Positions 2 to 28,622 of a stretch of DNA of 64,000 bases are shown piece by piece. Where the stretch lies: the IMG/VR virus record IMGVR_UViG_3300008261_000125, positions 31,568-95,567 of that record. One strand, 5' to 3'. The notes below the pieces were generated by a model that saw only the letters and a program-made list of their open reading frames with translations, was not told the origin of the DNA and searched no databases. The number at the start of each line of letters is the position of its first letter. The first letter of the stretch is position 1. The translations under genes and the position numbers were made by a program. Origin of the DNA: a virus.

Positions 2-3000
2 ATTAGTAGAAGGATCCTCATAAGATTGACTTATTACATAAACTCCATCATCAATTTTAGATACATAAGGTTTATCAAACAAGTAAGTATCTTTACCAGT
101 AGCATCTGCTATTAATTGATTAACTGATCTTTTATAGCTAATACCTCTACCTTTAAGTCTATTGTTTTCAGTTTGATTATTTTGTTTAAAGAACTCATAA
201 AATCCTTCTAGTACCATGTTAGCTTTAGACTCATTTTTATTTAAGAATGTATAGAATGCTTCAGAAGCTTTTTCCATTACAGGTCTATATCTATCATAAG
301 GCATGATACTGTTTAATGAAAATTCACTAGAATCCATACCACTCTGTAGGAAAGCAATCATAGGTAACTGAGCAAAGAACTCACTAATATATGCATTAGC
401 TTGTGCTCTATTAGCTGTTTTCTCAGACACTTTCATTTCTTTAGGATTAGCTAACTTAAGCCACTCATTATAGTATTCTTCACTCAAGTTTTCATCTAAC
501 TCAGTTAAGTTTTTAATCTTAAAGTTAGTTCTTGACATGTGGTTCTTTTTACTACTTATAGAAGATGCAGAAAATTGTCTAACTAAATCAAATTGAAGTT
601 TTAATTCAGGATAGCTTTCAATAATACTAATTAGTTTTCTAGCTGTAGTATGCTCACCAGATCTGAATAACTCATAGTTATTATAAGTATTACTTAATGC
701 TTCATGCATTAATACATACTCATAAACTATTTTGTTTAATCTATTTGTATAATCTTCTTGACTTTCACCTTCTCTTTTAACAAATAAACTAACCCCACTA
801 TTTACAAGTCTGTTTTTAGCACTTTGAAATTCTTTTGTTCCTAATAAAGATTCTAAACTTTTTATCTTTCTTAAATATTCTCTTTCTAAACTGAACTCAA
901 TAAATGATTCAACATCATTTTGATTAAATGCAGATGGATGAATATAAAATAATCCTCTTCTTAAATAAGCTTCATCAGATTTAGAACTAGATAAGTGATT
1001 TTCATTAGCAAAATCACTTCTTAATTGCTCAATACTTTTAACAGGACTGTTCTCATTAAGTAATTCACTAATAGGAGTTTGTTTGTATTCACTAGCACCT
1101 TGTTTATATTGTTTAAGAACATTAGTAAATATGTATAAACTTAAAGCATTTTTAAATCTGTTAATAAATGTTTCTTCATCTAAACCAGTTTCTTGTTTTA
1201 GAATAGCTCTTTCAATTGGATTCTCTAAAGTTTTTATTAAGAATTTATTTACTAAATCATTATCCCTTGTAGCAAATAAGTTTTTACCAAATAATGCTCT
1301 AGAAAATTCTTGAATAAAGAATGATGATATAGCACTCTCTTCTTTGAAATGAACTTTAAGAGAAGAATCTAATGTTTTAAACTTATCAATTTTTTCAATG
1401 TCATGTATTTTAGCTTGAGCTGCAAAGTTATCAACTGCTGATTCTGTATCTACATTAAGATATCCTTTAAGGTTATCAAACTCTTCAATTAAATCTTCAA
1501 TATAAAAATACTGTAATAAACCAGCTATTTGTTCTTTATTAAATTTAAATGATTGTTTTGCTACTTCTTTTAAAGATTCTTTACTAAAAGATACATCTTT
1601 ATATCTTGTATTTAATATTTTATAAAATCCAGCAATATTATTTTTTAATTGATTTCCATCAAGATCTACCATTACTCCTTTAAGTAATTCTTTTCTTGCT
1701 TTATTTTTAGCAGAAGTAGTTGTATTTCTATGTTTAGGACCATAGATTATTTTTGCTAAAGGTGATTTATAATTTATCTTAGATTCAACATATTTTCTAA
1801 TCATAGGATTACTTACAAAATACGCTATATCCTCTATAGGAACACCTGCTTGTAATAAGAATAATGTTTTAGGAATTACTTCCATGTTACCTTGTAAGTA
1901 ACTAATCCATGCATCTTTACCAACATCCACAGCACCATTCATCAATTGAGATAAAATATCAGCTATATTATTAATTTTTTCAGCATCTGTTTTATTAGAT
2001 AAAGAAATAACTTCAATCTCTTTTAATGTTTTACTATCAATTTCTTTAGTTTTATTATAATTAAGTCTTAGTTTAATTGGAACTTTTACAGGTGATAAAA
2101 CTTCACTATCACTATAGTATGGATTTTCTACTTCAAATGAATAATTCATTTTAGCACCAGCCATAGTTAACATATTAGCAAATGTATTATGTAAAGTAAT
2201 AAGTCCTAAAATGTTTTTACCTGTAATATTATCTTGTTGTTTTTTAAGATTGTAAGCATACTCAGTCATTTTAGTAGGACTCACTCCACCACCTGGAGTT
2301 GATTCTCCAGTTTTAATAGATTTAGTATGATCAACTTCATTATCTGCTTTTTGAATATCTTTTTTGAGTGTATTAGATAAAGGTTTAGTTAAATGAGTAT
2401 CATTAGGTTGCATTAATGAGAAAGCCATCTCTGGCATTTCCATAACCCCAATAATATTATCTATAAATTTATTTTGAATAGCAGCAGTAAAGTTTCTCTT
2501 ATGTTCTTTTAAATTAGAAAGTTCATTATAAGCTCTACTTAATTCACTATCTTTTGATATTAATTCAGTAATTAAATTTTCAATTTCAGGATATTTTTCT
2601 GAATCAAATCCTTTAATTTGTTTAGATAAAATTTGATAAGATTCTGGAAGATTCTTTTTAATAAACTCTTGTTCCTTTGGATTACTTAAAGTTTTTAATA
2701 ACTCTTCATTATTATAAGTAGTATAAGCAAAGAACTTTTCTTTAACAAGTCTTTTATGTTTACTTTCTTTTTTAATACTATTTCTAAAGTCATCAAGATC
2801 TTCTTTAATAGTTAATTTATCAGCTTTTAAATCTTTTAATTTAGTTTTTAATTCTTGAATTTTAGCATCTAATTCTTCTGGTGTTTTATAAGTATCACCT
2901 GCAGATGCTGGTAAGAATTCATGTATTTGAACAAACTCAACTGAGTTAGGTCCTTGTGTAGGAATCCTTACACCAGTCATTCTAATAGAGTTTTCATTTT

Positions 3001-6000
3001 CTTTTAACCAAGCTTCATTCTTAATCATTTCATTAAGTCTTATGAAACTTGCATCATAGTCTAATACATATTTAATCTCAGATTCTGTATCAGGGTTCTT
3101 TACATAAACAGCTACTTTATCTGTAGTCTTTTTACCATTAACATAGTAATTAGTAGAGAATAGATTTTGATAGTTATCTGTTAAGGCAACTTTAACCTTT
3201 GCACCTATAGTCTCTTTACTACCATTTGTACTAACAATATATCCACTTAAACCATTAGTACCAAAGTCATCATATTCTTTTGTTTGTTCAATAGTAGGTT
3301 TTTTAAATGATTGTGTAAGAGCAGAAGAAACTTGTACTAAAGGTTCACCTTTAATTTTAAGTTTAATCAATCTATTATTAATAACAGACATTAAAAGTTT
3401 TTCAAGTCTAGCAGCTTGAGGACTTAAACTTAAATCAATTTTCTTGTTAGAACTATATTGAACAAAGTCTATTTCATGATCACTATATCCTTGACTTTTT
3501 AATATATCAACAACATAAGTAATCATGTCATCAATATTACCTTCTGGTAAACCATTTACTTCAGTCCAACCCATTTCTTCTAATAGGTCTTTTCTCATGT
3601 ACTCAGTTAACCTTTTAAGTTGCTTATATACTTGTTGTGTATTTTTATAAGCATTACTGTTTTTTAGCTTTTCAGCTTTAGTTAAACTGTTCCATTCCTC
3701 TTTAGTACCTTTATAATCTATAGGGACACCATTATCAAATAACCCAACATTAAACACTTTACGTAACTGAGTAGATAAAACACTCTTTCCTTTAAAGTAT
3801 TTATTAACTTCTGTTTGATTTTTTAAGTATTCAAAGTAAATAGGATTAGGAGTAAAGTTAATATCTTGATATTCTTTGATATTACTTGTATCACCTTCAT
3901 AAATACTATCACCATTAGTTTTGTCATCAGCTCTTAAGTAAGATCTCTTAGCTCCAGAATCAAATAATGCATAGTCAATGTTTTGAGCCATCATAGCTAA
4001 GTGCATTTTTTCTAAAGGTAATCCTTTAATTACACTAGGAATTAATGGTAATAAACTGAATTTATCAATACTTTGTATAGGATAGTTCTTTAATTCAGTT
4101 ACTAATGGTCCTGCATACTGTAATTTATATACTGGGAATAAATCAGTTAACTCTTCAGGTGTAAGACTTTCTCCTCTAAGTTCTTTTTGGTAAGCAGCTT
4201 CTTGTTGTTCTGTCCAACTATTTTCAAGATTTTTTAAGATTCTATATGAGTCAAATGATATCCATCCTTGACCATCACCATCTTTAATTCCTGTATATGG
4301 TTGTAATAAACCTCCAGTAATATTAGTTTCAGAACCACCTTTACCATATAAAGCTTCGTTAATATCACCTTGATATTTTTTTTCTTTTAACCAATGTCTG
4401 AACATTTCAGCATAATCATCTAAGTAAATACTATCTACTTTACTCTCTTTGATTATTGCTTTGTTACCTTTACCTGTATATAATCTTGACTCAGTTTGAT
4501 TTGGATCTCTTCTTACTAATTTACCACTCTTAACTAGACTATCTTCATATGGTCTTTTTACATGAGTATTAATAAATAGTTTTGCTAGTTCATCAGTAGG
4601 GAAGATTAGACCAGAAGAGTTATAAGTAGGAACCCTTTTTAAACTCTCGTCATTGATATGATTAAATTGAAATCCATCACCAAGCTCTAACAATATAACT
4701 TCATTAGCATGTAAAGAACTGTTTATAGCAAATGAATATAATAAAGCATCTTTAATACTATCAGTTGTAGCTACTTGTCCTTCAGTAAGATGTTCTTCAG
4801 CAATTGATCTTAAGAAATTAGGAACATTATTACCAAAAACTTTATTATAATTATTAACTTCTAATGATTTTTTTGAAGTTTCAAAATAGTTAATAATTTC
4901 TTTTTCAATTTCTTTTCTTAACTCAAGGTTTTTATTTAATAAACTATTTAAAGTAGTTTCATCATTTAACTGACTAGCATACTCATTAATAAGTTTATTT
5001 TTTAATTCACCATCTTTAGTATTTAAGATATCATCAAAATAATCAAACTTAATACCTTTTTCATAAAAGTCTTTAGCTTTAGAATAGTACTCTTTATTGT
5101 CTTTGATTTTTTGAATTCTTCTTAACTCACCTTCTAACTTAGGAATCATTATGTCCATTACTTTATCAAATGGATTATATCCTAATAAGTAATTACCATT
5201 AATATCTTTTAAGAAAGCTTGAGTATCTACATATAAATGGTTATTCTTTTTAAGTGAATAAGTGTTAAGTCTTTTTACTTTAACTCCAGTATAAGTACTT
5301 TTTTCACCATGTCTTACAGCTTCAATATATCCATCTTTTAACATAGAAGCAAAGTCAGTAATAAACTTATCAACTTTGGTCATTGAACCGTGTGAAACAC
5401 CATTACTATCATCAGATAAATCTTCATATTGAGAACCAGTTAAATCTACTAATTCAATACCATTAAGATTATTTCTCTTACCTGTAGTGTCAAATAATGA
5501 ATTCATTATAACACTACCTATAACATGAGGGTTGTTTTCTTTAACTAAATGAGGAACATAACTATAAGCACCACTTTTTAATTCATCTAAAGAACCTGCT
5601 TTCTTTAAAGCATATACAATTTGAGTTAAAGTTGTATTTAATGAGAATGCACTTTTCTTACTTTTTTCTGCAGTAAGTTTCATCCTACTAATGTTTTCTG
5701 TAGAGAACTCAGCATCAATCTTAGCTAATGTATTAACATTAGAAGCTTGATTATCTATAGCACCCTCAATAAACTCACCAGTAGCTAGTTCAATTTTAAT
5801 CTTATTATGTTTTTGACCTAAGAAATTAACTATGTTAGTAATAGGTAATAGGTTTCTTTTTGCTAAGATGTCTTTGTTAGCTTCTGCTAAACCAATAGCA
5901 TTAACAATATAATCAAAAGCTTTTGTAGTATCATCATTAATAGCTTTTCTAACATCATAGTTATCTTCTAAATACATACCTATTGCATTTAAGAATGGAA

Positions 6001-9000
6001 TCTTTAATGATTCATCTTTAATGAAATATTTAGTAATACCTTCTTTACCTATAGCAGAAGATGTTAAAAATTCTTTAACTACTTTACTTAAGTTAAGAGT
6101 ATTTTCTTTATTAGCATTTACAGTAACAAATGGACCTGATTCAGTAGAGAACTTAGCTGGCCATACTTTATTTTTAATTGCTGAGTGATCAGCTGATACT
6201 TTACCTACTACAAAACTAACTTGAGTTTGATTATCAATGGTTTCTTCTTTAAATTTAGAAGTAACTAAATCTTCTCTTTCTAAGTTCAATGATCTGAATA
6301 CACCCATCCAAATTTTAGATGCACCAGCACCTTTATCAGCACCCATAACCACAGTAGGATCACCTAGTTTTTCTAACAACTGAGCAAATAAAGGTGAAGT
6401 ATTTTTAACTGATGCTAGTTTTTTGTATAACTCATCAACTCTTTTTTCACCACCAACTTTATCTATTAAATTGTTAAAGAACTGTTTATGATTAATAGGC
6501 TCAGGAAATCCTAGACTATTTAATATATTAACTCTTTCTCCATTTACAACTTCTTGTTTTAATAAAGTCTTTAGGATGTATGTACAATCAGCAGTAGCAA
6601 GTTCATATGATTCAGTTTCATTACCACCTTCTCTTCCAGATTTAGATAATGGAGACTCATAGTTCTCATCAATCATTTCATTAAATGAACTGTTTTGTAA
6701 ATGGTAAGTAATAAGATCTAACTTATCACCTTTTCCATTTAAAGAATTAGTTGCATCACCATAGTTATCTAAAGCTTTTATTAACAATAAAACATTGTTT
6801 CTTTTATATTTTCTTTCAATCTTATCCCACTTAGTTTTATTATTTTTATCTTTAGCATAATCTGCTTCAAACTCTTTTCTTAAAACATCTAATCTAGATG
6901 CTAATTTCTTTTTAATTGCAGAATTATATAATAAAGTTAATCTCTCTTGTCCTTTTAAGATATTAGCTGCAGCATCATATTTACCTTTTAATAAATAACC
7001 TGTAGTTATATCAGATATAATACCATCCATACTCTTAACAAGTAATGATGCTTCTACTGGAGTAAATATTACAGTACCATCTTTAGCAATTATACCAGAG
7101 TTTAATACACCAAACTCAGCATTGTCCATACTTGGAGTATACATGTTTAATTGTTCAGGACTTTCTGCTGTATATAACTGATTAAACATTTCAGATAATA
7201 TACCTTGAGAACCAGGATTAGAATAAACATTAATATCAGTTGTTCCTTTAAATAATGTTTTTAAGAATTTCCAAACTCTATCAAAGATTCTTGAGAATAT
7301 ATTTGATTTTTCATTTTCAGTTTTGAACTTACCATTGTTCATGGCATATACTCTGAACTCTTCTGCTATAAATTCTTCTAACTCTTTTCTAGAAGCTTCA
7401 GTAAATTCTACTTTAACTGTTTGGATGTTATTACTTTCATTCTTTCTGGTAACAGTGAAGGTGCCTGGTAATTGTCCTACAGCTTCATATAGTTTATTTC
7501 TATCAGCTTTAGATAAATATATCTGACTGAATGCATGCCAAGCCTCATGGTAATTATGAGTGTAATCTGAACCTGCAAACAAAGTAATAGTAGCATTACT
7601 AAAACTAGCCCAAGCATCTGAGTTAACTAAATTAAAAGCTTCTTTTAAAGTAATCAATGGTTTACCATTAGAGTCTTTAGCTTTAGATAATGCACTTTTT
7701 TCCCACCATGTTTTTGCTTTAGCTTTCTGTTCTGGAGTAGCAATACTTTCAATTAACTTAGATCTTAATAAACTTTCTAGTTTATCTTCTTCATCAGTAT
7801 CTTCTTGTATAATTGTTTTAGCATTATTAACTACTTCTTTTACTTCTTGTTCTACTACTGCTGTTTCATTAGTAGGTTCAAAACTGAAATATCCATTAGC
7901 TACTAATGGTCTTTCTGTTGTAGAATCAAAAGCAATTCTGGGGATCATGTTTTGTAAAACATAATCTTTAATGTAATTAATAGGTTGTACACTTACTACA
8001 CCATCTTTAATATTAAATCTTTCAATGGTTACTTTATTTTTTAAATCAGTAGAGAAGTTAGCAAATAGTTTTGCACCCAAAGTTTTTACTAGCTGTTCTT
8101 TAGCTTGTACTTTATCTGATAAATCTAACTGCTGTCCATTTAAACTAATAACAATTTCATTGTTTACTATTGAAAGATTAAATACAGATCTATCTAATTT
8201 ACTAGCATAGTTATTAAAATAACTTTGTCTATCAGCTGGAGATAATGGTTTACCATTTTCATATACTAAATCATCAATCAGTACAGAAATTAAACTATCA
8301 AACAATGATCTATCACCTGCAAGAAGGTTTCTACCTTTTAATGATATAGGTTTATCAATATTGTTTATTTTAATAGATGGTAAGTTTAATGTTTTAACAA
8401 CACCTTTTACCATCATATCAGCATATGCTATTGCAATACTTTCAATTTCAGTATCTGTAAGATTAAATTGACTTAGTGTTTTTTCAACTAAAGATTTGTA
8501 TTGTTTTAATTTTTCAGGATCAGTTATTTTCTTAAATGTCTCATCAGTATTTTCATGATAACCTTTTTTACCACCTGTTATATCTAACAAAATTGGTTGG
8601 TTATCCATTACAGATTTGGATATAAGATCACTTTGTTTTTTTTCTTCATTAACCATTTGGTTAATTTTAGAAATAAGTTCATTTCTTAATCTTGAGTATT
8701 CAAGAGGATCATTTTTAGATTGCTCTCTTAAAGCTGTCTCATTACTTTTTAATAACTCTTCTTTAAGTGCTTTAACTTTAGCATCAGAAGAGTCTTTCAT
8801 ATAGAAGTAAACTATTTTACCATCTTCTTTAGATGTAATCTCACCTTTACTATTAAAGTATAAAAACTCACCTTTGTTATTAGTTAATGCTAGAATTATT
8901 CTCTTAGAACTTAAAGTAGCTCCAGGATATATATTTTTTTCTAAATCAGGTAATGTATTTTCTACTATTGGTTTTAATTTAAAACCTTTATGTCCACTAT

Positions 9001-9625
9001 ATTCTACATTAGAGTAATTAGCATTATCAGTTGTATTAGCTTCTAATACTTTAGTTAATACATTATAGTAAAAGTTTTTACCAGCATTTGTTTTAGTAAA
9101 TATAGGAAGACCTGATACTTCTTCTAACTGTTGACCTGTTGAGTTTTGTAAAGATAAACTAGTTAATATTTTATTAAGAACTAATTCTAATATTTGATTT
9201 TCATTAGATACTTCAGACTGAGTTTCAGGAGTGGTAACACTATTTTCTAATATGACTTTCATACTAGTTTTAGTACCAACTTTAATGTAATTAGCAATTT
9301 CTTTTAAAGGATCCTCTGACTTATTAACTAATAACTCAAAATTTCTTACAGCTTTTAAATCAAAGTTTTTGTCTATTAACTGAGTTAGTAATTTAGGATT
9401 GTCTTCAATAACTTGAAAAAACACTGTAGGAATAACTGCTGCTATTCCTAAAGACTTAGCTTGGTCTTTGTTTTTCTCATAAGCAACATAATAAACATCT
9501 CTTACTACTTCTAATATTTTAAAAGGTTTATCAGGAGTCTTTAAGTTGTTTAAAATCTTATTGTAGACCTGATTAGCAAGAACTTTAGCTAATTCTTTAT
9601 TTTCATCTAAATTACAAATACTCAT
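2..9625 (-). CDS. Virion-packaged DNA-dependent RNA polymerase (crAss-like double-psi beta-barrel RNAP) with N-terminal zincin-like domain; 3'-truncated by the window edge, >3200 aa
   Basis: ATG at 9625 (MSICNLDENKELAKV), directly after the stop of the previous gene. The frame was open at every segment translated by hand, and the ORF track lists no terminated ORF here. Motifs read: HEAWH (7535-7549) then EEFIAEEFR; DGQGWISFDSYR (~4245-4280); DKFSLLPLIP; STQLRK; GVRIPTQGPNS (2942-2974); GKNILG; LSQLMNGAVDVGKDAWI. All resemble crAss-like virion RNAPs. Confidence 0.88.
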   Translation of the reverse strand, partial: MSICNLDENKELAKVLANQVYNKILNNLKTPDKPFKILEVVRDVYYVAYEKNKDQAKSLGIAAVIPTVFFQVIEDNPKLLTQLIDKNFDLKAVRNFELLVNKSEDPLKEIANYIKVGTKTSMKVILENSVTTPETQSEVSNENQILELVLNKILTSLSLQNSTGQQLEEVSGLPIFTKTNAGKNFYYNVLTKVLEANTTDNANYSNVEYSGHKGFKLKPIVENTLPDLEKNIYPGATLSSKRIILALTNNKGEFLYFNSKGEITSKEDGKIVYFYMKDSSDAKVKALKEELLKSNETALREQSKNDPLEYSRLRNELISKINQMVNEEKKQSDLISKSVMDNQPILLDITGGKKGYHENTDETFKKITDPEKLKQYKSLVEKTLSQFNLTDTEIESIAIAYADMMVKGVVKTLNLPSIKINNIDKPISLKGRNLLAGDRSLFDSLISVLIDDLVYENGKPLSPADRQSYFNNYASKLDRSVFNLSIVNNEIVISLNGQQLDLSDKVQAKEQLVKTLGAKLFANFSTDLKNKVTIERFNIKDGVVSVQPINYIKDYVLQNMIPRIAFDSTTERPLVANGYFSFEPTNETAVVEQEVKEVVNNAKTIIQEDTDEEDKLESLLRSKLIESIATPEQKAKAKTWWEKSALSKAKDSNGKPLITLKEAFNLVNSDAWASFSNATITLFAGSDYTHNYHEAWHAFSQIYLSKADRNKLYEAVGQLPGTFTVTRKNESNNIQTVKVEFTEASRKELEEFIAEEFRVYAMNNGKFKTENEKSNIFSRIFDRVWKFLKTLFKGTTDINVYSNPGSQGILSEMFNQLYTAESPEQLNMYTPSMDNAEFGVLNSGIIAKDGTVIFTPVEASLLVKSMDGIISDITTGYLLKGKYDAAANILKGQERLTLLYNSAIKKKLASRLDVLRKEFEADYAKDKNNKTKWDKIERKYKRNNVLLLIKALDNYGDATNSLNGKGDKLDLITYHLQNSSFNEMIDENYESPLSKSGREGGNETESYELATADCTYILKTLLKQEVVNGERVNILNSLGFPEPINHKQFFNNLIDKVGGEKRVDELYKKLASVKNTSPLFAQLLEKLGDPTVVMGADKGAGASKIWMGVFRSLNLEREDLVTSKFKEETIDNQTQVSFVVGKVSADHSAIKNKVWPAKFSTESGPFVTVNANKENTLNLSKVVKEFLTSSAIGKEGITKYFIKDESLKIPFLNAIGMYLEDNYDVRKAINDDTTKAFDYIVNAIGLAEANKDILAKRNLLPITNIVNFLGQKHNKIKIELATGEFIEGAIDNQASNVNTLAKIDAEFSTENISRMKLTAEKSKKSAFSLNTTLTQIVYALKKAGSLDELKSGAYSYVPHLVKENNPHVIGSVIMNSLFDTTGKRNNLNGIELVDLTGSQYEDLSDDSNGVSHGSMTKVDKFITDFASMLKDGYIEAVRHGEKSTYTGVKVKRLNTYSLKKNNHLYVDTQAFLKDINGNYLLGYNPFDKVMDIMIPKLEGELRRIQKIKDNKEYYSKAKDFYEKGIKFDYFDDILNTKDGELKNKLINEYASQLNDETTLNSLLNKNLELRKEIEKEIINYFETSKKSLEVNNYNKVFGNNVPNFLRSIAEEHLTEGQVATTDSIKDALLYSFAINSSLHANEVILLELGDGFQFNHINDESLKRVPTYNSSGLIFPTDELAKLFINTHVKRPYEDSLVKSGKLVRRDPNQTESRLYTGKGNKAIIKESKVDSIYLDDYAEMFRHWLKEKKYQGDINEALYGKGGSETNITGGLLQPYTGIKDGDGQGWISFDSYRILKNLENSWTEQQEAAYQKELRGESLTPEELTDLFPVYKLQYAGPLVTELKNYPIQSIDKFSLLPLIPSVIKGLPLEKMHLAMMAQNIDYALFDSGAKRSYLRADDKTNGDSIYEGDTSNIKEYQDINFTPNPIYFEYLKNQTEVNKYFKGKSVLSTQLRKVFNVGLFDNGVPIDYKGTKEEWNSLTKAEKLKNSNAYKNTQQVYKQLKRLTEYMRKDLLEEMGWTEVNGLPEGNIDDMITYVVDILKSQGYSDHEIDFVQYSSNKKIDLSLSPQAARLEKLLMSVINNRLIKLKIKGEPLVQVSSALTQSFKKPTIEQTKEYDDFGTNGLSGYIVSTNGSKETIGAKVKVALTDNYQNLFSTNYYVNGKKTTDKVAVYVKNPDTESEIKYVLDYDASFIRLNEMIKNEAWLKENENSIRMTGVRIPTQGPNSVEFVQIHEFLPASAGDTYKTPEELDAKIQELKTKLKDLKADKLTIKEDLDDFRNSIKKESKHKRLVKEKFFAYTTYNNEELLKTLSNPKEQEFIKKNLPESYQILSKQIKGFDSEKYPEIENLITELISKDSELSRAYNELSNLKEHKRNFTAAIQNKFIDNIIGVMEMPEMAFSLMQPNDTHLTKPLSNTLKKDIQKADNEVDHTKSIKTGESTPGGGVSPTKMTEYAYNLKKQQDNITGKNILGLITLHNTFANMLTMAGAKMNYSFEVENPYYSDSEVLSPVKVPIKLRLNYNKTKEIDSKTLKEIEVISLSNKTDAEKINNIADILSQLMNGAVDVGKDAWISYLQGNMEVIPKTLFLLQAGVPIEDIAYFVSNPMIRKYVESKINYKSPLAKIIYGPKHRNTTTSAKNKARKELLKGVMVDLDGNQLKNNIAGFYKILNTRYKDVSFSKESLKEVAKQSFKFNKEQIAGLLQYFYIEDLIEEFDNLKGYLNVDTESAVDNFAAQAKIHDIEKIDKFKTLDSSLKVHFKEESAISSFFIQEFSRALFGKNLFATRDNDLVNKFLIKTLENPIERAILKQETGLDEETFINRFKNALSLYIFTNVLKQYKQGASEYKQTPISELLNENSPVKSIEQLRSDFANENHLSSSKSDEAYLRRGLFYIHPSAFNQNDVESFIEFSLEREYLRKIKSLESLLGTKEFQSAKNRLVNSGVSLFVKREGESQEDYTNRLNKIVYEYVLMHEALSNTYNNYELFRSGEHTTARKLISIIESYPELKLQFDLVRQFSASSISSKKNHMSRTNFKIKNLTELDENLSEEYYNEWLKLANPKEMKVSEKTANRAQANAYISEFFAQLPMIAFLQSGMDSSEFSLNSIMPYDRYRPVMEKASEAFYTFLNKNESKANMVLEGFYEFFKQNNQTENNRLKGRGISYKRSVNQLIADATGKDTYLFDKPYVSKIDDGVYVISQSYEDPSTN

Positions 9626-9627
9626 AA

Positions 9628-12600
9628 TTAACAAATGTTATCTTGTATATCTTTTTTAAGTTCATCTTCTGATTTCTCTGTGTAAGTTATATTAACATTT
9701 TTAATAGCTGATTGATTTTGTACTGCTGTATCAATATCCTCTTTACTATTTTGTATTCCTTGGATGTCAATTATTGATTTAATTTCATTAGGAATGTTTT
9801 CTGTTTTTACACTGATATCACCAGATAATCCTGATAAAGATACAGAATTTTCTTTTATTTCCTTTATTATATATCTACCATTTTTCTCTGGATTATCAAC
9901 TGATTCATACATAACTTCATAATTTCTGTCTTTAGCAACCTGAAGACTGTTAATGTTAATATTCTGATTTAATGTTTCTATAGTAGCTTGTTTACTCTCT
10001 GGTACTTCTACTTTAGCTTTTTCATTTTTAGGTGTACTCTCTCTTATATATGTAAGAACATTTCCATTATATAATACTTCAATTACATCAGTAGAAGGTT
10101 TGTCACCAACTGCTTTTTTAATCTTTTGTATAGTAACCTTTTCTCCAATAGGTAACTTGTTATCTTTAAAGAATTGAGTTACTCTTACTACTCTACCATC
10201 ATCTAACACTACATGATATGAACTCTCATCAGCTGCATTAGGATATACACCTTTTTGAAATACACCACTAAGTTGCTCACCTGGCTTAAGTTCATCAACA
10301 ATAGTTTTAAATTTCTTTTCTATTGATAACTCATTAAATTCTCCTACAGGTTTACCTTTTAAAGCTTTTAGTTCTGCATCATATCTAGTATTGATTTTAG
10401 TTACTTTGTTACCTAAGTGAGTACTTCTGTACTTTTCACCTTTTTCTTCATATCTTCTTTGGTCAAAAGTATTGTAACCTATTTTTGGTTCTAAAGATGT
10501 TTCAACTGTTTCAATAACTTTTCCATCTTTAACAATAGCAAGTTTTACATCTTTCCCTTTTACTTGCTCATTAGTATCATAAACATTTCCAGCAGAATCA
10601 ACTACATATAACTTTTTACCATCTTGCCTATTTTGTGCAGAAAGAAAATCTTGTTCTTGTTGTACATTTTTAAACTTAACAAATACAATTAAGTCATTAG
10701 GTTCATTTTGTTCTCCAGTAGCTGTTTTAAATCTTTGTGTTCTACCATCAGGTAACACAGTATAAACACTTCCTTTAGCTGTTTCAAAACTTTCTATATC
10801 AGCTTTCTTATCAGAAACAGTACCTTCTAAAGCAGCTAGTTCTGCATCGTAATCTCTATATGCAATAGCTTCTGCTTTTCTTATTCTATTACTAGCAAGA
10901 TTTTCAAATAGTTCAGAATCAGTAAATCCTTCTGAACCCATTGCTTTTCCTGTATCTGACACCACAGCTATTATCCAAGTCCATAATCCATTTTCTTTTC
11001 TTTTAGCCCTCCCAACTTTTACAGTACCATCAGATTGTTTTTTACTTATAAGAATTTCATCTTTTCCTTCAATATCTTCAATTTGAACTGGTCCAGAAGG
11101 TTTAACTTCTACAAATTGTCTATCAGACCCGTTAAAAAGAGTTGTTTTATTTAAATTTTTTAAATCTTCTTGTCTTCTCTCTTCTATATCAGCTTTCTTA
11201 GCTTTTAAATCTGTAGTAGTTTCGGTTCCAGTTGGTACTGGAGCTGCTACTTCTAATTTAGAAGGGATGTATTTATTTACAATCTCTTTAAATTCATTAT
11301 AATTAATCTTTGTTTTACTTGCTCTTGGTTCTTCTGTTAATGAGGTAATATTACCATCTAAATCTTCTTTTGTTTTAAAAGCTATAAGTTCTAAGTTAGT
11401 TACTTTTATTCCTGTAGTATTCTCTAATAAGTTTTTATATAGAGAAAGCTGTAGGGAATATTTTTCTTTCTTAGCAGACTTATCACTTTTGTTTCCAAAG
11501 TATTCCCATTTTGAACTAGTTTTCATGTCATATATTTTGTATTCTCCACCAGGAGTAACTACAAGTAAATCCATTTCACCAGCTATAGTTTGAGGCTTAC
11601 CATTTACTTCATTAGTTGTAACACCAGATAACACTAATCCACTAGCAACTACAACTTCATTTTGTTCAGCTAATTGTTGATCAAATTCAATTAATTTAGT
11701 TCTTAAATTGTTAAAAGCTGTCTCACTCATATTTGATGGTTTTATAAGTTCAACACCCTCAAAATAATCACGGACTAATTTATCTACAACATTACCTCTA
11801 ATTGTAGTTTCTTCATAAATATATTTTTCAAATAGCTTTTTAAAATTATCATTTGAAGTATTAGACTTAAGTTCTTCTTTAAATAGTTTTAATTTTCTAC
11901 CATTAAATTGTTTATTAAATAACTCTTGAGCTTTTTGTTTAGCTTCATTATCTTTATTATCTGCTAAATCTTTTTTAATAAATTCAAATATACTGTCTAC
12001 ATATGCTTCTCTATTTTTAGCATTTGCTTTAACAGTATCATCTTCTTGAGCTTTTATATAAGCATCAAGAATAGGAGCAGCAGATTTTTCAAATACAGCA
12101 AACTTGCTATAATCTGGATAATTTTCTTCTAAGATTTGATCAATAAGTTTTGTTACTCTAGTGTCTTTCTTTTCACCATTGATAATATAATTATTATCAA
12201 CTTTATCTTTATTAACTGTTCTCTTAGATAAAGCTTTAACAAGAGCTAATGCATTTTCTTGTTCAGGTGTCATTTTAATTGACAATCTGATTTTATAGTT
12301 AAGTGCTTGTTTAACTTTATTTAATTCATTTAAAACACTAGGTTCAGTTTTATATTTTTCTAAAAGCTCTTTATGTTTATTTTCAAGTTCCTTAAGTGTT
12401 AAGTTTAAATACTCTTGAAACTCAGCTGTTTTTTCATTTAGTATTTCTTTTTCTAATTGTTTTTTGAAATCATCAACAATATTTTTACCAGCTGGAAACT
12501 GTGTAGAAAATTCTTCAATAGTCATTTCATCACTAATATCTCCTGCTTTAATTAAAGCATTGTATTTTTCTTCTAGTTTAGCTTTAAGTTCATCAGGGTA

Positions 12601-15600
12601 TTCTTCATACTTAGCAGAATCAAATGATTTTAAAGTTTGTAGTTTCTCATCTTTTTTCTTTTGCTTTTCTAATTCAGCTTTTACAGTTACAATATTTAAA
12701 TGCATCTCCCATAACTCTAAAGCTTTATCAAAGTCAACACCTTGAGTTACTTGTTCATTTCTAGAAGGATCTATAAAATTAGTAGGAAGTATAGGTGTTT
12801 CCCCTTTATCCAAAGCTTTTTGATATTCAGCAATGTACTCTGCAGATAATGTTAAACCAGTTTCTTTTGTAATCTCATTTAAAGCATCATTTTTTTCTTG
12901 AAGCTTTACTAACAGATCAAACATTTTTTTTGCTTGTTCTGCTTTTTCTTTATCATGTTCAGTAATAGCTTGTTGAAGTCTATACTGTAAATTCATAAAA
13001 CCTTTAGGACTGCTTAGTACATTAATACTTTCAGCTAAACCTTGTCTGTCTTTTTGAATTTGTAATCCATCTTTTAATAAAGAAAATGCTTCATCCATGT
13101 CTTTATCAAAAACTATGGTATTATTTTTTTTACTTAAATATTTAGCATATTTAGCAAAAACCTTTTTAGCATTTTCATGTATCTTTTCTTTTTCAATAGG
13201 ATCAGTTGTTTTTTCTGCAGCTAATAACTCTTCTTGAAACTGTTCTAATATTTCAATTCTTTTTTCTTTATCTCTTTTAACATCAGCTTGTTCTGGTACA
13301 TTACCTAAAACTTTTACCTCATCTCTTAATAACTTAAGTTCTTTTTCTAAACTAGGAAGAGATAATACATTCATTAAAGATTGAGAATCTTCTTTAGCAA
13401 TATTACTAGACAATTTAGAAAATGAGTTATACATTTTCTCTAGTCTTTGACCATAATGCTGAAAAGTATTAGTAGCAAATACTAAGTTTTGTTGTGCTTT
13501 TCTCCAAGCAATGGATGAATTAACAGCTGCTAAATAAGCATCACTACCATGTTCATATTGATTTGGATTAAATGGATTTGGATAATTAGTAGCTACTTCT
13601 TCATAAGTTTCTTTAATCTTTTTAGCTCTGGCAATAACACCATCCATTGCTTTTAAAGCTTTACCTACATCTTCTTTAGCTACACCATATTTAGCAAATG
13701 CTTCAGCTGCTTCTTCTGGAGATAAGTTTTTATAATCTTCTAACTGATCTACAAATAAATCAAACTTACTTGTTTCTAATGCAGTCATTATATGATTATA
13801 TTCAATTTCTTCTTGAGCATCTTTAGCTTCTTTATGCTTACCTTCTTTAATAGCAGTATATAAATCATCTGATAAAGTACCATTTCTTATAACATTATGA
13901 ATTTCTGGAAAAAAATGTTTTAAATTATCTTTAGAAAGCTCATTTAATATCTTAACTTGTCTATCAATAGTTTCATCTCTTTTTCTCTTTGCTTCTTCAA
14001 TTTTAGATTTATCACCTGCTAGTTTAGAAAGTTTTGTAAATGACCAAGCAGGTACTGCCATAATAGGTTGAGCAAACATACCCATTAAGAAACCTCCAGC
14101 AAAAGTCTCAGCTCCTTCAGCAGAAAACTGATCTTTCATACCTTCCATAAAGTGACCCATGTAACCATGATATGCACCCATCTTAGGATCTTTAAAAACT
14201 GCAAGTGCATGATTAATTGCACCTTTAGAAATAGCTTCTTGAAGATTCTCTTGAATACCTTCAGCAAAGTTGGCTTTTAAATAGTTCATACCAACTTGAC
14301 CATATATTTTAGGTTGTGCTAATGACTTAGCAGCAGCTCTAGCTTTAGAACCAAAACCTTCACCTAATTTAGCAAAGCCTTCAGTTGTAGTTGCTTTTAA
14401 TGGTTTTGATGCTATGATGTCATCAAGTAATTTAACTGAGCTACCTCTACCTACCATTTTACGAATAGGTGCAAGCATTGTAGCATAAAGTAATTTATTA
14501 CTAGTCATGATTGCTGGTAAGTTCCAGAAAGCAGTTCTTCTAGCTTCTTCTCCTGATAATGCTTCTATTTTTGCAAGTTCTTTTTCATCAGGCTCTTGAC
14601 CAAAATGTGTTCTTTTATATTCATCAATCAATGCTTTGTTAGCATCAATTTTAACCATACCACCTTCTAACTTAGCTTCTGATACAGCAGTTTTAATACT
14701 AATAATATCATCTGCAAAAGCTCCGAATGTTTTAGTAGTCTTAATAAGATCAGTTGCATAATCAGTTTTCTCTAAAGCTTGTAATGTATTTTCAAATGGG
14801 TTTAATGTTCTTAAAGTACCCATTGCTATTTGTTTAGCCCCTAACTCACCAGCTTTTATAGAATTATAAAAGTTTCTAGCATCATTAAAACTTCTAATAC
14901 CCTTAATATTATCAGTAGCTTTTTTAACAGTCTCAGCTTCTTTAGCTAATCTTCCAGCAGCAGCAGCTTTTTCAGCACCTGCTACAGCTTCACCAAAACC
15001 CATTAATTTTCTAGTTGCCATACCTGCTTTAGCAGCCATTCCTGGTAATGTAACTTCACCAGCTAAACCACCTGTAAATGCAGTAACAGCTCCTAATGCA
15101 ACCTCTTCTGCTAAGAAGTCAGCAGCAATACCTATAGTGTAAGCAGAGTTTAAGAATGTATTAGTTACAAATCCACCTATACCACCAGAACTAGAGTTAC
15201 CAATAGCCATAGCTTTTTGCATTTCTCTAGCACTTTCAATATCCGGGGCTAATGGATCTGTGAATAAAGTACCCCATGCTTTAATACCTGATTTAAAACC
15301 AGTTAATGCTAAGTTATCCCATTGTGATGCAGCTCTTACAAACTGATCACCAAATGTCATCTTACTATTATATAGTGCTTCATTATCTCTAAAGGGGGAG
15401 AATCCTAAAGTTTTAAATTGATCAGTAGAGTAATATCTTTCAAAGTTAGCACCATCCACATCACCATTGTATGTATATGGTCTCATCTTTACATAATCAC
15501 TCTTAGAAGACTGAACATTTATATCAAATAGTTTTGCTTCATCTTTAGGACTAACAGCAGCAGTATTAATATCACTTAGTTTTGTTTTAGGATTAGTACC

Positions 15601-15762
15601 AGTTATTGGATTACCTACAACATTTTTATAAATATTTAAACTTGCAGGTTTTGCTGAATACTCTCCTAAGTCTGTAGTAACACCTGTGGTATTAATACTA
15701 GAAAAATCTTTAGGGGAAGCTGTGTTTACTGCTTCTTCAGATGTGTTTAATTCTTCTGCCAT
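9628..15762 (-). CDS. Large virion cargo/ejection protein with hydrophobic segments, coiled coils and a PD-(D/E)XK nuclease-like domain
   Basis: 2044 aa. Gly/Ala-rich hydrophobic stretches (VALGAVTAFTGGLAG, FAGGFLMGMFA). Nuclease-like motif RGNVVD...IAGEMDLLVV...IYDMKTS...YSLQLSLY. Adjacent to the RNAP gene. Confidence 0.7.
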   Translation of the reverse strand: MAEELNTSEEAVNTASPKDFSSINTTGVTTDLGEYSAKPASLNIYKNVVGNPITGTNPKTKLSDINTAAVSPKDEAKLFDINVQSSKSDYVKMRPYTYNGDVDGANFERYYSTDQFKTLGFSPFRDNEALYNSKMTFGDQFVRAASQWDNLALTGFKSGIKAWGTLFTDPLAPDIESAREMQKAMAIGNSSSGGIGGFVTNTFLNSAYTIGIAADFLAEEVALGAVTAFTGGLAGEVTLPGMAAKAGMATRKLMGFGEAVAGAEKAAAAGRLAKEAETVKKATDNIKGIRSFNDARNFYNSIKAGELGAKQIAMGTLRTLNPFENTLQALEKTDYATDLIKTTKTFGAFADDIISIKTAVSEAKLEGGMVKIDANKALIDEYKRTHFGQEPDEKELAKIEALSGEEARRTAFWNLPAIMTSNKLLYATMLAPIRKMVGRGSSVKLLDDIIASKPLKATTTEGFAKLGEGFGSKARAAAKSLAQPKIYGQVGMNYLKANFAEGIQENLQEAISKGAINHALAVFKDPKMGAYHGYMGHFMEGMKDQFSAEGAETFAGGFLMGMFAQPIMAVPAWSFTKLSKLAGDKSKIEEAKRKRDETIDRQVKILNELSKDNLKHFFPEIHNVIRNGTLSDDLYTAIKEGKHKEAKDAQEEIEYNHIMTALETSKFDLFVDQLEDYKNLSPEEAAEAFAKYGVAKEDVGKALKAMDGVIARAKKIKETYEEVATNYPNPFNPNQYEHGSDAYLAAVNSSIAWRKAQQNLVFATNTFQHYGQRLEKMYNSFSKLSSNIAKEDSQSLMNVLSLPSLEKELKLLRDEVKVLGNVPEQADVKRDKEKRIEILEQFQEELLAAEKTTDPIEKEKIHENAKKVFAKYAKYLSKKNNTIVFDKDMDEAFSLLKDGLQIQKDRQGLAESINVLSSPKGFMNLQYRLQQAITEHDKEKAEQAKKMFDLLVKLQEKNDALNEITKETGLTLSAEYIAEYQKALDKGETPILPTNFIDPSRNEQVTQGVDFDKALELWEMHLNIVTVKAELEKQKKKDEKLQTLKSFDSAKYEEYPDELKAKLEEKYNALIKAGDISDEMTIEEFSTQFPAGKNIVDDFKKQLEKEILNEKTAEFQEYLNLTLKELENKHKELLEKYKTEPSVLNELNKVKQALNYKIRLSIKMTPEQENALALVKALSKRTVNKDKVDNNYIINGEKKDTRVTKLIDQILEENYPDYSKFAVFEKSAAPILDAYIKAQEDDTVKANAKNREAYVDSIFEFIKKDLADNKDNEAKQKAQELFNKQFNGRKLKLFKEELKSNTSNDNFKKLFEKYIYEETTIRGNVVDKLVRDYFEGVELIKPSNMSETAFNNLRTKLIEFDQQLAEQNEVVVASGLVLSGVTTNEVNGKPQTIAGEMDLLVVTPGGEYKIYDMKTSSKWEYFGNKSDKSAKKEKYSLQLSLYKNLLENTTGIKVTNLELIAFKTKEDLDGNITSLTEEPRASKTKINYNEFKEIVNKYIPSKLEVAAPVPTGTETTTDLKAKKADIEERRQEDLKNLNKTTLFNGSDRQFVEVKPSGPVQIEDIEGKDEILISKKQSDGTVKVGRAKRKENGLWTWIIAVVSDTGKAMGSEGFTDSELFENLASNRIRKAEAIAYRDYDAELAALEGTVSDKKADIESFETAKGSVYTVLPDGRTQRFKTATGEQNEPNDLIVFVKFKNVQQEQDFLSAQNRQDGKKLYVVDSAGNVYDTNEQVKGKDVKLAIVKDGKVIETVETSLEPKIGYNTFDQRRYEEKGEKYRSTHLGNKVTKINTRYDAELKALKGKPVGEFNELSIEKKFKTIVDELKPGEQLSGVFQKGVYPNAADESSYHVVLDDGRVVRVTQFFKDNKLPIGEKVTIQKIKKAVGDKPSTDVIEVLYNGNVLTYIRESTPKNEKAKVEVPESKQATIETLNQNININSLQVAKDRNYEVMYESVDNPEKNGRYIIKEIKENSVSLSGLSGDISVKTENIPNEIKSIIDIQGIQNSKEDIDTAVQNQSAIKNVNITYTEKSEDELKKDIQDNIC

Positions 15763-26198: not shown

Positions 26199-28622
26199 TT
26201 AAATATCATCAAGCCAATTAGTAGATTCCCCACCATCTTGGTACTTTAAATTTGGTTTATATCTTCTTTTACCAGAAGGTCCATAAATAGTTTCATTTCT
26301 TAACATAATATCATTTATGCTAGTTTGAATATTTTTAGATGTAAATCTTTTTAAACCTTTTTGACCACCTTTTTTAAACTCATCTTCATACTCATCCAAC
26401 CATTCTCCACCTTCTTCTTTCTTCATTCTTTTTTTAGCTTGATTTAAGAGTTTTAAATCTTTAGGTCTTTTACTATCAATTACCATAAGTGTATCAGGAT
26501 TAGGAAACATCTTATTTATTTTATCATAAGAATTATCTCCAACATTTACACAACCATAAGAACCACATCTTAATTTAGGATCTGCTTGTCTTAATAATTC
26601 TAATCTTTTATTATACTCAACATCATCAGCATTATAAGCATCATCTGCATAAAGTCTGTGAAAAGCTAAATTAGCAGCACTAGGAGCTGCTTGCCCATAT
26701 GCAGGAATTGGATTTAAATATCTAATTTTAGATTTATAATTAACATCTTCATCATCACCTTTAACAGGAGTTAATTGTTTTTCTAAATTATAATAACCTA
26801 CTGGAGTACCTCTTAATTTACGGTTTTGTGCTAGTTGCTCTACAGTATATGGGTTTACATTTAAATCAGGGTTAGCACCTGTCATTACATTAAAAGAAAG
26901 TGTTTTACCATTATCTCCTACTGCATAAGCAATGTTAGTTCTTTTATCAACTACTACTCCAGATTGAGGTATCTTTCTATTGTCTTTATAAACTATAGGA
27001 TATTTTTCTCCTGAAGCTAATCTGTTATCATAATATTCAGGATGATAACCACCTCCTACTTGATACTCATCTAACCATCCTCCATTTTTAAAAGTTTTTG
27101 ATAAACTTAAACCCTGATAATCTGGAGAAATATTTGCCCCTATAGATATATCATTATTTAATTGATAATTTGCACCCACATATGGATTTATAATACCTGT
27201 TTGTTCAAATGTTTTAATAGGTATATAATTTCCAATATTACCTGTTAGTTTTCCTTTACCAAAAGATAATCCTAAATCTTTATATGATTCTCCTAACCAG
27301 TTCATATTTTCATTCCATCCTTCTAATAATTTATTTTCTGAAAGGTTAAATTTTGGAATAATATCTATTTGTCTTGGTTTATTATGTATATTATTTATAC
27401 CTCCTTTTTGCATATGAGTATGAGTCTTAGTGTTCTGTCCACCAAAAGGATAATGACCTGTTATGTTAGGTAGAGAAGGATCTCCACCATAAGCTACTGT
27501 ATTTAAGTCTTTAGTTTGATTATTTTTAGCTAAAGTATTAAGCATATCAATAATGGTATCATCATCATAATAAAATCTAAGATCAGAAATAGGTAGTTTA
27601 ATAGATTTATTATCAAGTATAGATTTATTTACTTTTTGACCAGGCTTTAAATTAAGAGTTCTTCTAATATCCATTATTCTAGGATACATACCATCTTTAT
27701 CTAAATATTTTTTTTGTTTTTCAAACTCGCTATAAATACCAGGATATTTTTGTTTTGCTTTATCAAAAGAATCATAGACTTTATTATAATTATCATCAAA
27801 ATTATAATCTCCATACATCTCTACAAATTTTTTATCAGAATTTTGTTTCTTATCTAAATAGTTGCTCAATATAACATCCTCCATAGTTTTTTGCAAAGGG
27901 CCTGCACCATGTGTTTGTTCATGAGTAATTACTCCTGGATTATTAAAAGTATTAACCATTGATACATGGTAATTAGGTATATAAACACCAAGTTCTCCAG
28001 GATCACCTGAAAAATAAGGATTACTTGAAGAAATATTACTAGGTGTTTTCCATCCTTGTAAAGAGTTATTATATTCTATATCATTTTGACTAACATCAGC
28101 TTTTTTTACTAACTCTCTACTAAACATTGGTAAAGCATTAAGTTTGTTTATAACTTCTTTTGTTAAAATTTTTGGATTTATATCATTAGTAAGAATATTT
28201 GACTTTAAGTTTTTACTTAATCTTTTTTGTGTTTCTGGATGCTGCAACCAATTGACTAAAAAAGGATCTACATCAGGTGCCATCTTATATGTACTTTGTA
28301 CATCATCTGTATTATTCCACCAGTCACTTATAGGATTACCTTTTTGCTTACCTTTCTGAGCCATAGGTATTTCAGTAACATACTGTCCTGGAAACTGATA
28401 GTCCATACCAGGATACATCATCTGACCATAACCTAAGTCATCTTCTCCATATACAGGGTAATTTACACCCTGCATTGTTATATCATTAGAAGGAATTTTA
28501 GTTACTTGTCCAGGGTATTTCCACTGACCTAAGTTAGTATATTGTACATCATCCTTATATGGATCTGTTTTACCTTTTGGTTTAACTATGTACTCATTTC
28601 TAGGTATCTTATTCTGTTTCAT
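26199..28622 (-). CDS. Multi-domain virion protein: zincin-like HExxH segment plus L,D-transpeptidase-like domain
   Basis: 807 aa. THEQTH at ~27909-27926. Second YkuD-like domain (AFHRLY...SYGCVNV) at ~26450-26970. Confidence 0.65.
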   Translation of the reverse strand: MKQNKIPRNEYIVKPKGKTDPYKDDVQYTNLGQWKYPGQVTKIPSNDITMQGVNYPVYGEDDLGYGQMMYPGMDYQFPGQYVTEIPMAQKGKQKGNPISDWWNNTDDVQSTYKMAPDVDPFLVNWLQHPETQKRLSKNLKSNILTNDINPKILTKEVINKLNALPMFSRELVKKADVSQNDIEYNNSLQGWKTPSNISSSNPYFSGDPGELGVYIPNYHVSMVNTFNNPGVITHEQTHGAGPLQKTMEDVILSNYLDKKQNSDKKFVEMYGDYNFDDNYNKVYDSFDKAKQKYPGIYSEFEKQKKYLDKDGMYPRIMDIRRTLNLKPGQKVNKSILDNKSIKLPISDLRFYYDDDTIIDMLNTLAKNNQTKDLNTVAYGGDPSLPNITGHYPFGGQNTKTHTHMQKGGINNIHNKPRQIDIIPKFNLSENKLLEGWNENMNWLGESYKDLGLSFGKGKLTGNIGNYIPIKTFEQTGIINPYVGANYQLNNDISIGANISPDYQGLSLSKTFKNGGWLDEYQVGGGYHPEYYDNRLASGEKYPIVYKDNRKIPQSGVVVDKRTNIAYAVGDNGKTLSFNVMTGANPDLNVNPYTVEQLAQNRKLRGTPVGYYNLEKQLTPVKGDDEDVNYKSKIRYLNPIPAYGQAAPSAANLAFHRLYADDAYNADDVEYNKRLELLRQADPKLRCGSYGCVNVGDNSYDKINKMFPNPDTLMVIDSKRPKDLKLLNQAKKRMKKEEGGEWLDEYEDEFKKGGQKGLKRFTSKNIQTSINDIMLRNETIYGPSGKRRYKPNLKYQDGGESTNWLDDI

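What the first reader, a model, noticed from the sequence alone, without database searches (positions are those of the whole stretch)
2780..2990. Virion RNA polymerase lacks the DFDxD catalytic motif at its expected position
Seen: hand translation gives GVRIPTQGPNSVEFVQIHEFLPASAGDTYKTPEELDAKIQELKTKLKDLKADKL..., running into a charged coiled coil and then the next conserved-looking blocks (QNKFID, GKNILG, NGAVDVGKD). I found no DxDxD in this stretch. Known: in crAss-like virion RNAPs (phi14:2 gp66 has DFDID) the Mg-binding motif follows shortly after the RIP...FLP...G segment. Inference: there are three options. The catalytic loop may have been removed by an in-frame deletion near 2890-2900 (defective genome or misassembly). 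The protein may be catalytically dead and kept for a structural or ejection role. Or the loop may be supplied some other way. The flanking motifs look intact, which favours a recent deletion over gradual decay.
Basis: partly seen in the sequence, partly recalled or inferred. Interest (0 to 1): 0.78.

Follow-up and report, generated by a model that had tools for sequence, protein, structure and literature searches.

The report
Deleted catalytic loop in phage polymerase
A crAss-like phage's giant injected RNA polymerase gene has lost, through a clean 111-base in-frame deletion, the short loop that does the chemistry, while an otherwise identical copy of the same phage found elsewhere still has it, so this is a freshly broken (or mis-recorded) copy of a known enzyme and not a new kind of polymerase.

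Summary
The minus-strand ORF (window 2..9625, 3620 aa in full) has no DxDxD anywhere, and no frame of the 95.6-kb record encodes the loop elsewhere.

The protein belongs to the phi14:2 gp66 family of crAss-type virion RNA polymerases. A family profile hits PDB 6VR4 at E 1.5e-33, and a model of a relative finds 6VR4 first (Foldseek E 3.5e-15).

Of 252 family members collected without regard to the motif, 251 carry D[FY]DxDK. The window allele lacks exactly 37 residues (PIIIIPAEIVAKSGGDFDVDKLTMYIKYITKQGSELK) between Gly2243 and Asp2244, at window 2896|2897.

A 3657-aa protein from another assembly is 100% identical over all 3620 shared residues and differs only by this segment. The two flanking giant proteins also occur letter for letter in other sources. 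The loss is therefore a single, very recent event, not decay or an evolved inactive form.

The junction allows no microhomology, which argues against a k-mer misassembly. I could not obtain reads, so whether it is a real defective molecule or a library/assembly artefact remains open (about 65:27).

The encoded protein should be catalytically dead.

The parts
2..9625 (-). Virion RNA polymerase gene, gp66 type. The part inside the window begins at ATG 9623-9625 (MSIC...). The ORF runs 1,238 bases beyond the window's left edge, to 3620 aa in full.
   Evidence: ORF list and translation. Profile of 19 relatives against PDB hits 6VR4_A at E 1.5e-33 in four collinear stretches. The exact protein is on record as P0002.
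2894..2899 (-). Deletion junction: codon GGT (Gly2243, 2897-2899) abuts codon GAT (Asp2244, 2894-2896). 111 bases (37 codons) present in the intact allele are missing here.
   Evidence: Alignment with P0003 (88-93% identical) and with P0122 and P0123 (100% and 99.96% identical) shows a single 37-residue gap. BLASTN against L083 and L081 gives a length difference of exactly 111 nt between the flanking matches.
2897..2974 (-). Retained first half of the beta-prime-like double-psi barrel (GVRIPTQGPNSVEFVQIHEFLPASAG).
   Evidence: Aligns to gp66 GYRIPNQGQSSNDPLQIVGILPEAMG. Modelled as strands 437-441 and 451-460.
2477..2896 (-). Helical (coiled-coil) insert that now follows the junction directly. 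It contains EDLDD (2789-2803) and the look-alike DLKADKLT.
   Evidence: The same stretch lies downstream of the catalytic loop in intact alleles. It is modelled as long helices. Its acidic positions vary among relatives.
3746..4288 (-). Region that includes the first (beta-like) barrel, with invariant Lys/Arg (K1834, K1855, K1893, K1935, K1945, R1955 in P0122 numbering).
   Evidence: Invariant columns of A1/A2. Lies within the stretch aligned to gp66 residues 923-1263. Which barrel is which is my inference.
1913..2476 (-). Conserved blocks downstream of the insert (QNKFID, GKNILG, NGAVDVGKD), intact in the window allele.
   Evidence: Conserved in A1/A2 (N2422, G2506, N2600, G2601, D2604) and aligned to gp66 1612-1682.

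Best explanation
The gene is the orthologue of the virion-packaged, injected two-barrel RNA polymerase of crAss-like phages (phi14:2 gp66 type). In this record it carries one very recent 111-bp in-frame deletion. The deletion removes a short strand, a short helix, the Mg-binding loop GGDFDVDK and the following strand of the beta-prime-like barrel. The rest of the 3620-aa protein is untouched, so it can still be made and perhaps packaged, but it cannot polymerise RNA. I read the record as a real defective variant genome sampled from a population whose normal allele is intact. It is not a lineage that lives without the motif. Shown: the homology, the exact deletion, the intact twin allele, the lack of a second copy, and a junction that allows no microhomology. 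Inferred: that the protein is catalytically dead, that the molecule existed in the sample, and that such a genome depends on wild-type phage.
For: Homology to gp66:
- The family profile hits 6VR4_A at E 1.5e-33, and a 221-aa profile around the motif hits at E 5e-20. The family's AKSGxDFDxDK aligns onto gp66 TKTGSDFDIDK.
- An AlphaFold model of the intact region of relative L003 (pLDDT 82.7, pTM 0.80) finds 6VR4 first by Foldseek at E 3.5e-15. The weak matches below it (all E > 0.1) are mostly largest subunits of cellular RNA polymerases and QDE-1.

The deletion:
- P0122 (3657 aa, another assembly) is identical at all 3620 shared positions and has the 37 extra residues. P0123 (99.96% identical) has them too.
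- The neighbouring 2044-aa and 1096-aa proteins are on record letter for letter from NCBI, JGI and Logan sources.
- 251 of 252 relatives keep D[FY]DxDK.
- No second copy of the segment exists in the 95.6-kb record.

The junction: the deleted segment starts with Pro (CCN) and ends with Lys (AAR). The flanks are ...GGT and GAT.... No shift of the break by 1-2 bases reproduces Gly-Asp, so microhomology is zero and the flanks share no k-mer (my inference).

Loss of function:
- Each single Asp-to-Ala change in gp66's DFDID abolishes RNA synthesis (preprint 10.1101/2020.03.07.982082).
- The model of the window allele has pLDDT below 50 at 461-468. It runs from strand 451-460 straight into helix 471-487, with nothing replacing the lost elements.
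Against: No reads could be examined, so the junction is supported by one assembled contig only. A phage without an active virion polymerase should not propagate, so a deletion allele that wins an assembly is unexpected. That raises the weight of an artefact. Catalytic death is inferred from gp66 mutants and from the fold, and was not measured for this protein.
Confidence: 0.65

Rival explanations
1. The deletion is not biological. It arose in library preparation (a chimeric or amplified fragment), in long-read consensus, or in scaffolding or gap closing, and the phage in the sample had the intact gene.
For: Every other assembly of this phage that covers the site is intact (P0122, P0123). The rest of the roughly 20 kb compared is identical at protein level. 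A polymerase-dead phage should be rare in nature.
Against: A de Bruijn assembler can only make a false join through a shared k-mer, and the codons at the two breakpoints exclude even 1 base of shared sequence (inference). A random chimera would need to outweigh the true path in coverage. The deletion is exactly in frame, which has a one-in-three prior.
Confidence: 0.27
2. The protein is an evolved, catalytically inactive form kept for a structural, packaging or ejection role.
For: The frame stays open for about 1,340 residues after the break and all other conserved blocks are intact. One other family member, P0226, has HFNID in place of DFDID.
Against: There is zero amino-acid divergence from the intact allele over 3620 residues, so selection has had no time to act. 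251 of 252 relatives keep the motif. No second polymerase is present in the record to take over.
Confidence: 0.03
3. Catalysis is rescued within the same protein or genome, either by other acidic residues (EDLDD, or the DLKADK stretch that now follows the junction) or by a separately encoded loop.
For: Unguided MAFFT lays DTYKTPEELDAK...DLKADKLT onto PxIIIPAEIVAK..DFDxDKLT.
Against: That stretch is also present, downstream of the true loop, in intact alleles and is modelled as a helix. It has Lys where the middle Asp should be, and single Asp losses kill gp66. The EDLDD positions vary among relatives (N, Y, H, A, S). No other match to the segment or to the profile exists in the record.
Confidence: 0.02

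Closest known systems
Cellulophaga phage phi14:2 gp66, virion-packaged DNA-dependent RNA polymerase (PDB 6VR4; preprint 10.1101/2020.03.07.982082)
   Same: Collinear profile homology over about 1,600 positions. The same RIPxQG...FLP...G...DFD[IV]DK signature in the family. The same two-barrel fold in a modelled relative. The same place at the end of the virion module of a crAss-like genome.
   Different: The protein here is about 3,620 aa against 2,180. It has a long helical insert after the catalytic barrel and extra N- and C-terminal modules. Single-sequence searches, PHROGs and Pfam do not connect them. The window allele lacks the catalytic loop altogether.
Neurospora QDE-1 and the largest subunits of cellular multisubunit RNA polymerases (two-barrel superfamily)
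   Same: Double-psi barrel with an Asp triad. They appear as weak fold matches behind 6VR4.
   Different: Only a distant fold-level relation (Foldseek E 0.1-0.6). Cellular enzymes have Gly at the fourth motif position, and this family has Ile, Val or Tyr.
Coliphage N4 virion RNA polymerase (Schitoviridae)
   Same: Works alike in outline: a giant polymerase packed in the capsid and injected to transcribe early genes (established knowledge; PMC13434306 listed, abstract only).
   Different: Unrelated fold (T7-like single-subunit polymerase, from my own knowledge). Not a relative.

Membership tests
gp66-type virion RNA polymerase of crAss-like phages | Sequence homology to gp66 across the polymerase core | tested here: met
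   hmmsearch of family profile A2 against PDB: 6VR4_A at E 1.5e-33, with four collinear stretches. Profile A3: E 5.2e-20. The window protein is a member of A-family searches at E 0 to 1e-38.
gp66-type virion RNA polymerase of crAss-like phages | Two double-psi beta-barrel fold like 6VR4 | tested here: met
   Tested on relative L003 (43% identical to the window region). The AlphaFold model (pLDDT 82.7) hits 6VR4_A by Foldseek at E 3.5e-15, probability 1.00, TM 0.50. The window allele's own model lacks part of the second barrel.
gp66-type virion RNA polymerase of crAss-like phages | DFDxD Mg-binding motif in the beta-prime-like barrel | tested here: not met
   Absent from the window allele and from all six frames of the record. 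Present in the allele that is identical at all shared positions, P0122, and in 251 of 252 relatives. The window gene is therefore a member by descent but not a working polymerase.
gp66-type virion RNA polymerase of crAss-like phages | Gene sits among giant cargo genes at the end of the virion module of a crAss-like genome | tested here: met
   All on the same strand: terminase (phrog_6681), portal (phrog_6547), major head protein (phrog_11589), then a run of 0.5-3.6 thousand-aa ORFs. The terminase is 24-26% identical to those of crAss-like phages of Bacteroides, Flavobacterium and Cellulophaga.
gp66-type virion RNA polymerase of crAss-like phages | Packaged in the virion, injected, transcribes early genes | not testable with these tools
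   Needs virion proteomics and transcription assays.

The most novel reading that the evidence does not exclude
The deletion allele is real and abundant in its source sample. A polymerase-dead crAss-like genome then persists as a cheater. Because the polymerase is a virion protein made in the previous host cell, a mutant genome packaged in a co-infected cell inherits working enzyme from wild-type phage. It can start one more infection, so the defect is masked for a generation and can be carried along at high phage density.
Probability: 0.1. Interest if true: 0.55.

Novelty: new member of a known kind. Interest (0 to 1): 0.22.

Why it matters
It matters mainly for quality control. A catalogued viral genome (about 80% complete) encodes a polymerase that should not work. 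Anyone using this record as the reference for this phage or for this polymerase subfamily would draw a wrong conclusion about the active site.

It also shows how an aligner can invent a degenerate motif from the sequence that follows a deletion.

If reads show the allele to be real and frequent, it would be a natural example of a defective genome of a crAss-like phage kept going by protein inherited from wild-type co-infection. That has some interest for phage population biology.

The subfamily is large: 985 clusters at 50% identity give E <= 0.001. It has no Pfam or PHROG model, so a model built from these alignments would improve annotation.

Tried and rejected
- Single-sequence searches linked the protein to nothing. 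These were phmmer against PDB, PHROGs and Pfam scans, and tblastn of residues 2000-2700 against 50,697 phage records. Only profiles and folds made the link to gp66.
An exact 27-mer next to the junction found nothing in viral or metagenome contigs. The search for related loci with P0122 found no relative. A degenerate pattern for GDFDVDKLTMYIK fetched four loci (L081-L084); the two nearest, L083 and L081, are about 70% identical in DNA.
No reads could be laid and read laying was not used.
- I rejected an intein or intron reading. The segment begins with Pro, ends with Lys, is 37 aa long, and carries the family's invariant active-site residues.
- I rejected recombination between the two DKLT-like stretches. 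That would remove a different interval and keep DFDVD.
- Alignment A5 mis-placed the window residues onto the motif columns and was discarded. A6, which includes the intact twin, was used for the fold instead.

Full report
WHAT IS THERE

The finding lies in a minus-strand ORF that fills window 2..9634 and runs off the left edge. The window is bases 31568-95567 of a 95,567-bp linear IMG/VR virus record of 30% G+C, estimated about 80% complete. In the whole record the frame is 3623 codons. The gene on record (P0002) starts at ATG 9623-9625 and has 3620 aa.

There is no DxDxD anywhere in the protein. No D[FY]DxD in a polymerase context occurs in any frame of the window or the record.

WHAT THE PROTEIN IS

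Direct searches say nothing. phmmer against PDB, PHROGs, Pfam, and tblastn against 50,697 phage records all came back empty. The protein nevertheless has a very large family:
- 148 hits among proteins of similar length in the word-indexed search.
- 985 clusters at 50% identity with E <= 0.001 in the exhaustive search.
- At least 482 IMG/VR loci.
- Most members are 3,300-4,800 aa long, on contigs of up to about 130 kb.

A profile of 19 members hits exactly one meaningful solved structure, 6VR4_A, the virion RNA polymerase gp66 of Cellulophaga phage phi14:2. The E-value is 1.5e-33, in four collinear stretches. A 221-aa profile centred on the motif hits gp66 at E 5.2e-20. It aligns the family's GVRIPVQG...FLPxxAGNIIIxPxEIVAKSGxDFDIDKL to gp66's GYRIPNQG...ILPEAMGDTIVAYTEIPTKTGSDFDIDKM. 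These are chain residues 1375-1379, which correspond to the published D1361-D1365.

An AlphaFold model of the intact region of relative L003 (921 aa, 67-row alignment, pLDDT 82.7, pTM 0.80) finds 6VR4_A first by Foldseek at E 3.5e-15, probability 1.00. It is the only match below E 0.001. The weak matches that follow are mostly largest subunits of cellular RNA polymerases and QDE-1.

The genome context fits. On the same strand lie terminase, portal and major head protein, then a run of giant ORFs. The terminase is 24-26% identical to those of crAss-like phages of Bacteroides, Flavobacterium and Cellulophaga. The phage is therefore a distant crAss-like phage, and the gene is its gp66-type virion polymerase.

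WHAT HAPPENED TO THE MOTIF

All 119 other proteins listed carry AKSGxD[FY]DxDK. Together with the top 150 representatives, 251 of 252 members do. The one exception, P0226, has HFNID.

Aligned with P0003 (about 90% identical), the window protein shows one clean gap of 37 residues between ...EFLPASAG and DTYKTPEE.... The 90% cluster of the window protein holds P0122 (3657 aa, Logan assembly). P0122 is identical to the window protein at all 3620 shared positions and differs only by PIIIIPAEIVAKSGGDFDVDKLTMYIKYITKQGSELK inserted after Gly2243. P0123 (JGI, cut by a contig end, 99.96% identical) has the segment too.

The DNA of more distant relatives gives the same size. Between the flanking BLASTN matches, L083 and L081 each have exactly 111 more bases than the window. 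The neighbouring 2044-aa and 1096-aa proteins are on record letter for letter from NCBI, JGI and Logan sources. Across the 3620 shared residues of the polymerase, the 37-residue segment is the only difference from the intact copy.

In window coordinates the junction lies between GGT (2897-2899) and GAT (2894-2896).

STRUCTURAL MEANING

In the intact model the barrel runs as follows:
- strand 437-442 (GVRIP)
- strand 451-460
- strand 467-469
- helix 472-477 (AEIVAK)
- the Asp loop (D481, D483, D485)
- strand 486-490
- a long helix from 506

The deletion removes everything from 466 to about 502.

The model of the window allele was built on alignment A6, in which the window row is correctly gapped. 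It has pLDDT 78.4 and pTM 0.68. Confidence falls below 50 at 461-468, and the chain passes from strand 451-460 straight into helix 471-487. Nothing replaces the lost strands or the metal site. In gp66 each single Asp-to-Ala change abolishes RNA synthesis. I therefore infer that the encoded protein is catalytically dead.

ALTERNATIVES

A second copy of the loop is excluded for the 95.6 kb on record. The family profile matches only the polymerase gene and stops at profile position 105, just before the loop. tblastn of the 37-residue segment gives only chance matches.

EDLDD lies in a variable helical insert. The same positions read YLND, HLDD, NLND, YLNS and NLAD in close relatives, and the insert is absent in distant ones.

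One trap needs noting. Without the intact twin in the alignment, MAFFT lays the window's DTYKTPEELDAK......DLKADKLT onto PxIIIPAEIVAK..SGxDFDxDKLT, which suggests a degenerate DxKxD motif. That stretch is also present downstream of the true loop in intact alleles, is modelled as a helix, and has Lys at the middle Asp position. The resemblance is accidental.

An evolved inactive enzyme is not credible, because there is no divergence at all from the intact allele.

REAL MOLECULE OR ARTEFACT

One inference is possible from the codons. The deleted segment begins with Pro (CCN) and ends with Lys (AAA or AAG). The retained flanks end in ...GGT and begin with GAT.... Moving the breakpoints by one or two bases either way would give GGA/GGG, GAA or CAT, not the GGT GAT that is seen. 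The break therefore has no microhomology, and the two sides share no k-mer.

A k-mer graph assembler cannot create such a join unless reads contain it. That favours a real molecule, or a library chimera, over a misassembly. Against a real allele stands biology: a phage with a dead virion polymerase should not spread, yet this allele won an assembly.

My odds are:
- about 65% a real defective variant
- 27% an artefact
- the rest for the exotic readings

Within the real-variant case, one reading of some interest is that the genome survives by inheriting working polymerase protein from wild-type phage in co-infected cells (about 10% overall).

VERDICT

The enzyme family is known and crystallised, and earlier agents of this scan have met it repeatedly on other genomes. 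This record is a broken copy of an ordinary member. Interest is low. The value lies in flagging the record, in the alignment caveat, and in the read-mapping test that would settle real versus artefact.

Noticed in passing
window 7535-7549 (-): HEAWH, in the context YHEAWHAFSQ, is invariant or nearly so across the family (Y692, E694, W696, H697, F699, Q701 in P0122 numbering). It looks like a zincin HExxH metallopeptidase site in the N-terminal third of the polymerase protein. No Pfam hit.
   Followed up: no
window 9614-9625 (-) and the ORF's end, 1,238 bases left of the window: Cys4 and the Cys two residues from the C-terminus (C3655 of P0122) are invariant in the 24-sequence and 19-sequence alignments. 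This agrees with another first-stage note on terminal cysteines in the cargo proteins.
   Followed up: partly
P0226 (2421 aa): The only other family member of 252 without the Asp triad. It reads AKTGGHFNIDK, two single-base-type changes (D to H, D to N) in an otherwise typical context.
   Followed up: no
L020:2001-16850 (+): A single 6282-aa open frame with two polymerase signatures: RIPVQG...DFDGDK at residue 2260 and RIPTQS...DFDIDK at 5606. It may be two different virion polymerases fused, or two genes read through.
   Followed up: no
L073:3-5636 (+): A much more distant gp66-like protein (IRIPTEDKYSM...GLDFDIDK). It shares a 135-aa C-terminal module at 81% identity with residues 3323-3457 of the window phage's polymerase, while the cores are barely alignable. 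This looks like module exchange between cargo proteins.
   Followed up: no
L085:9331-10599 (-), i.e. the last 422 residues of the polymerase ORF, left of the window: Pfam gives only a sub-threshold ASCH match (E 9.6e-4, 20.3 bits against a cut-off of 21.2) at residues 253-333. The NADAR family (PF08719) noted by another first-stage reader did not appear at E <= 0.01. PF08719, AlkB, ART and helicase domains are on record for other family members.
   Followed up: partly
window 9628-15762 (-): The 2044-aa protein upstream of the polymerase has an exonuclease-like PHROG match (phrog_298, E 1.7e-8) at residues 1315-1505.
   Followed up: no
window 28622-33676 (-): The 1684-aa protein matches two large 'virion structural protein' PHROGs (phrog_37948 at E 7.5e-54, phrog_15100 at E 1.4e-27), whereas the polymerase itself has no PHROG.
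   Followed up: no
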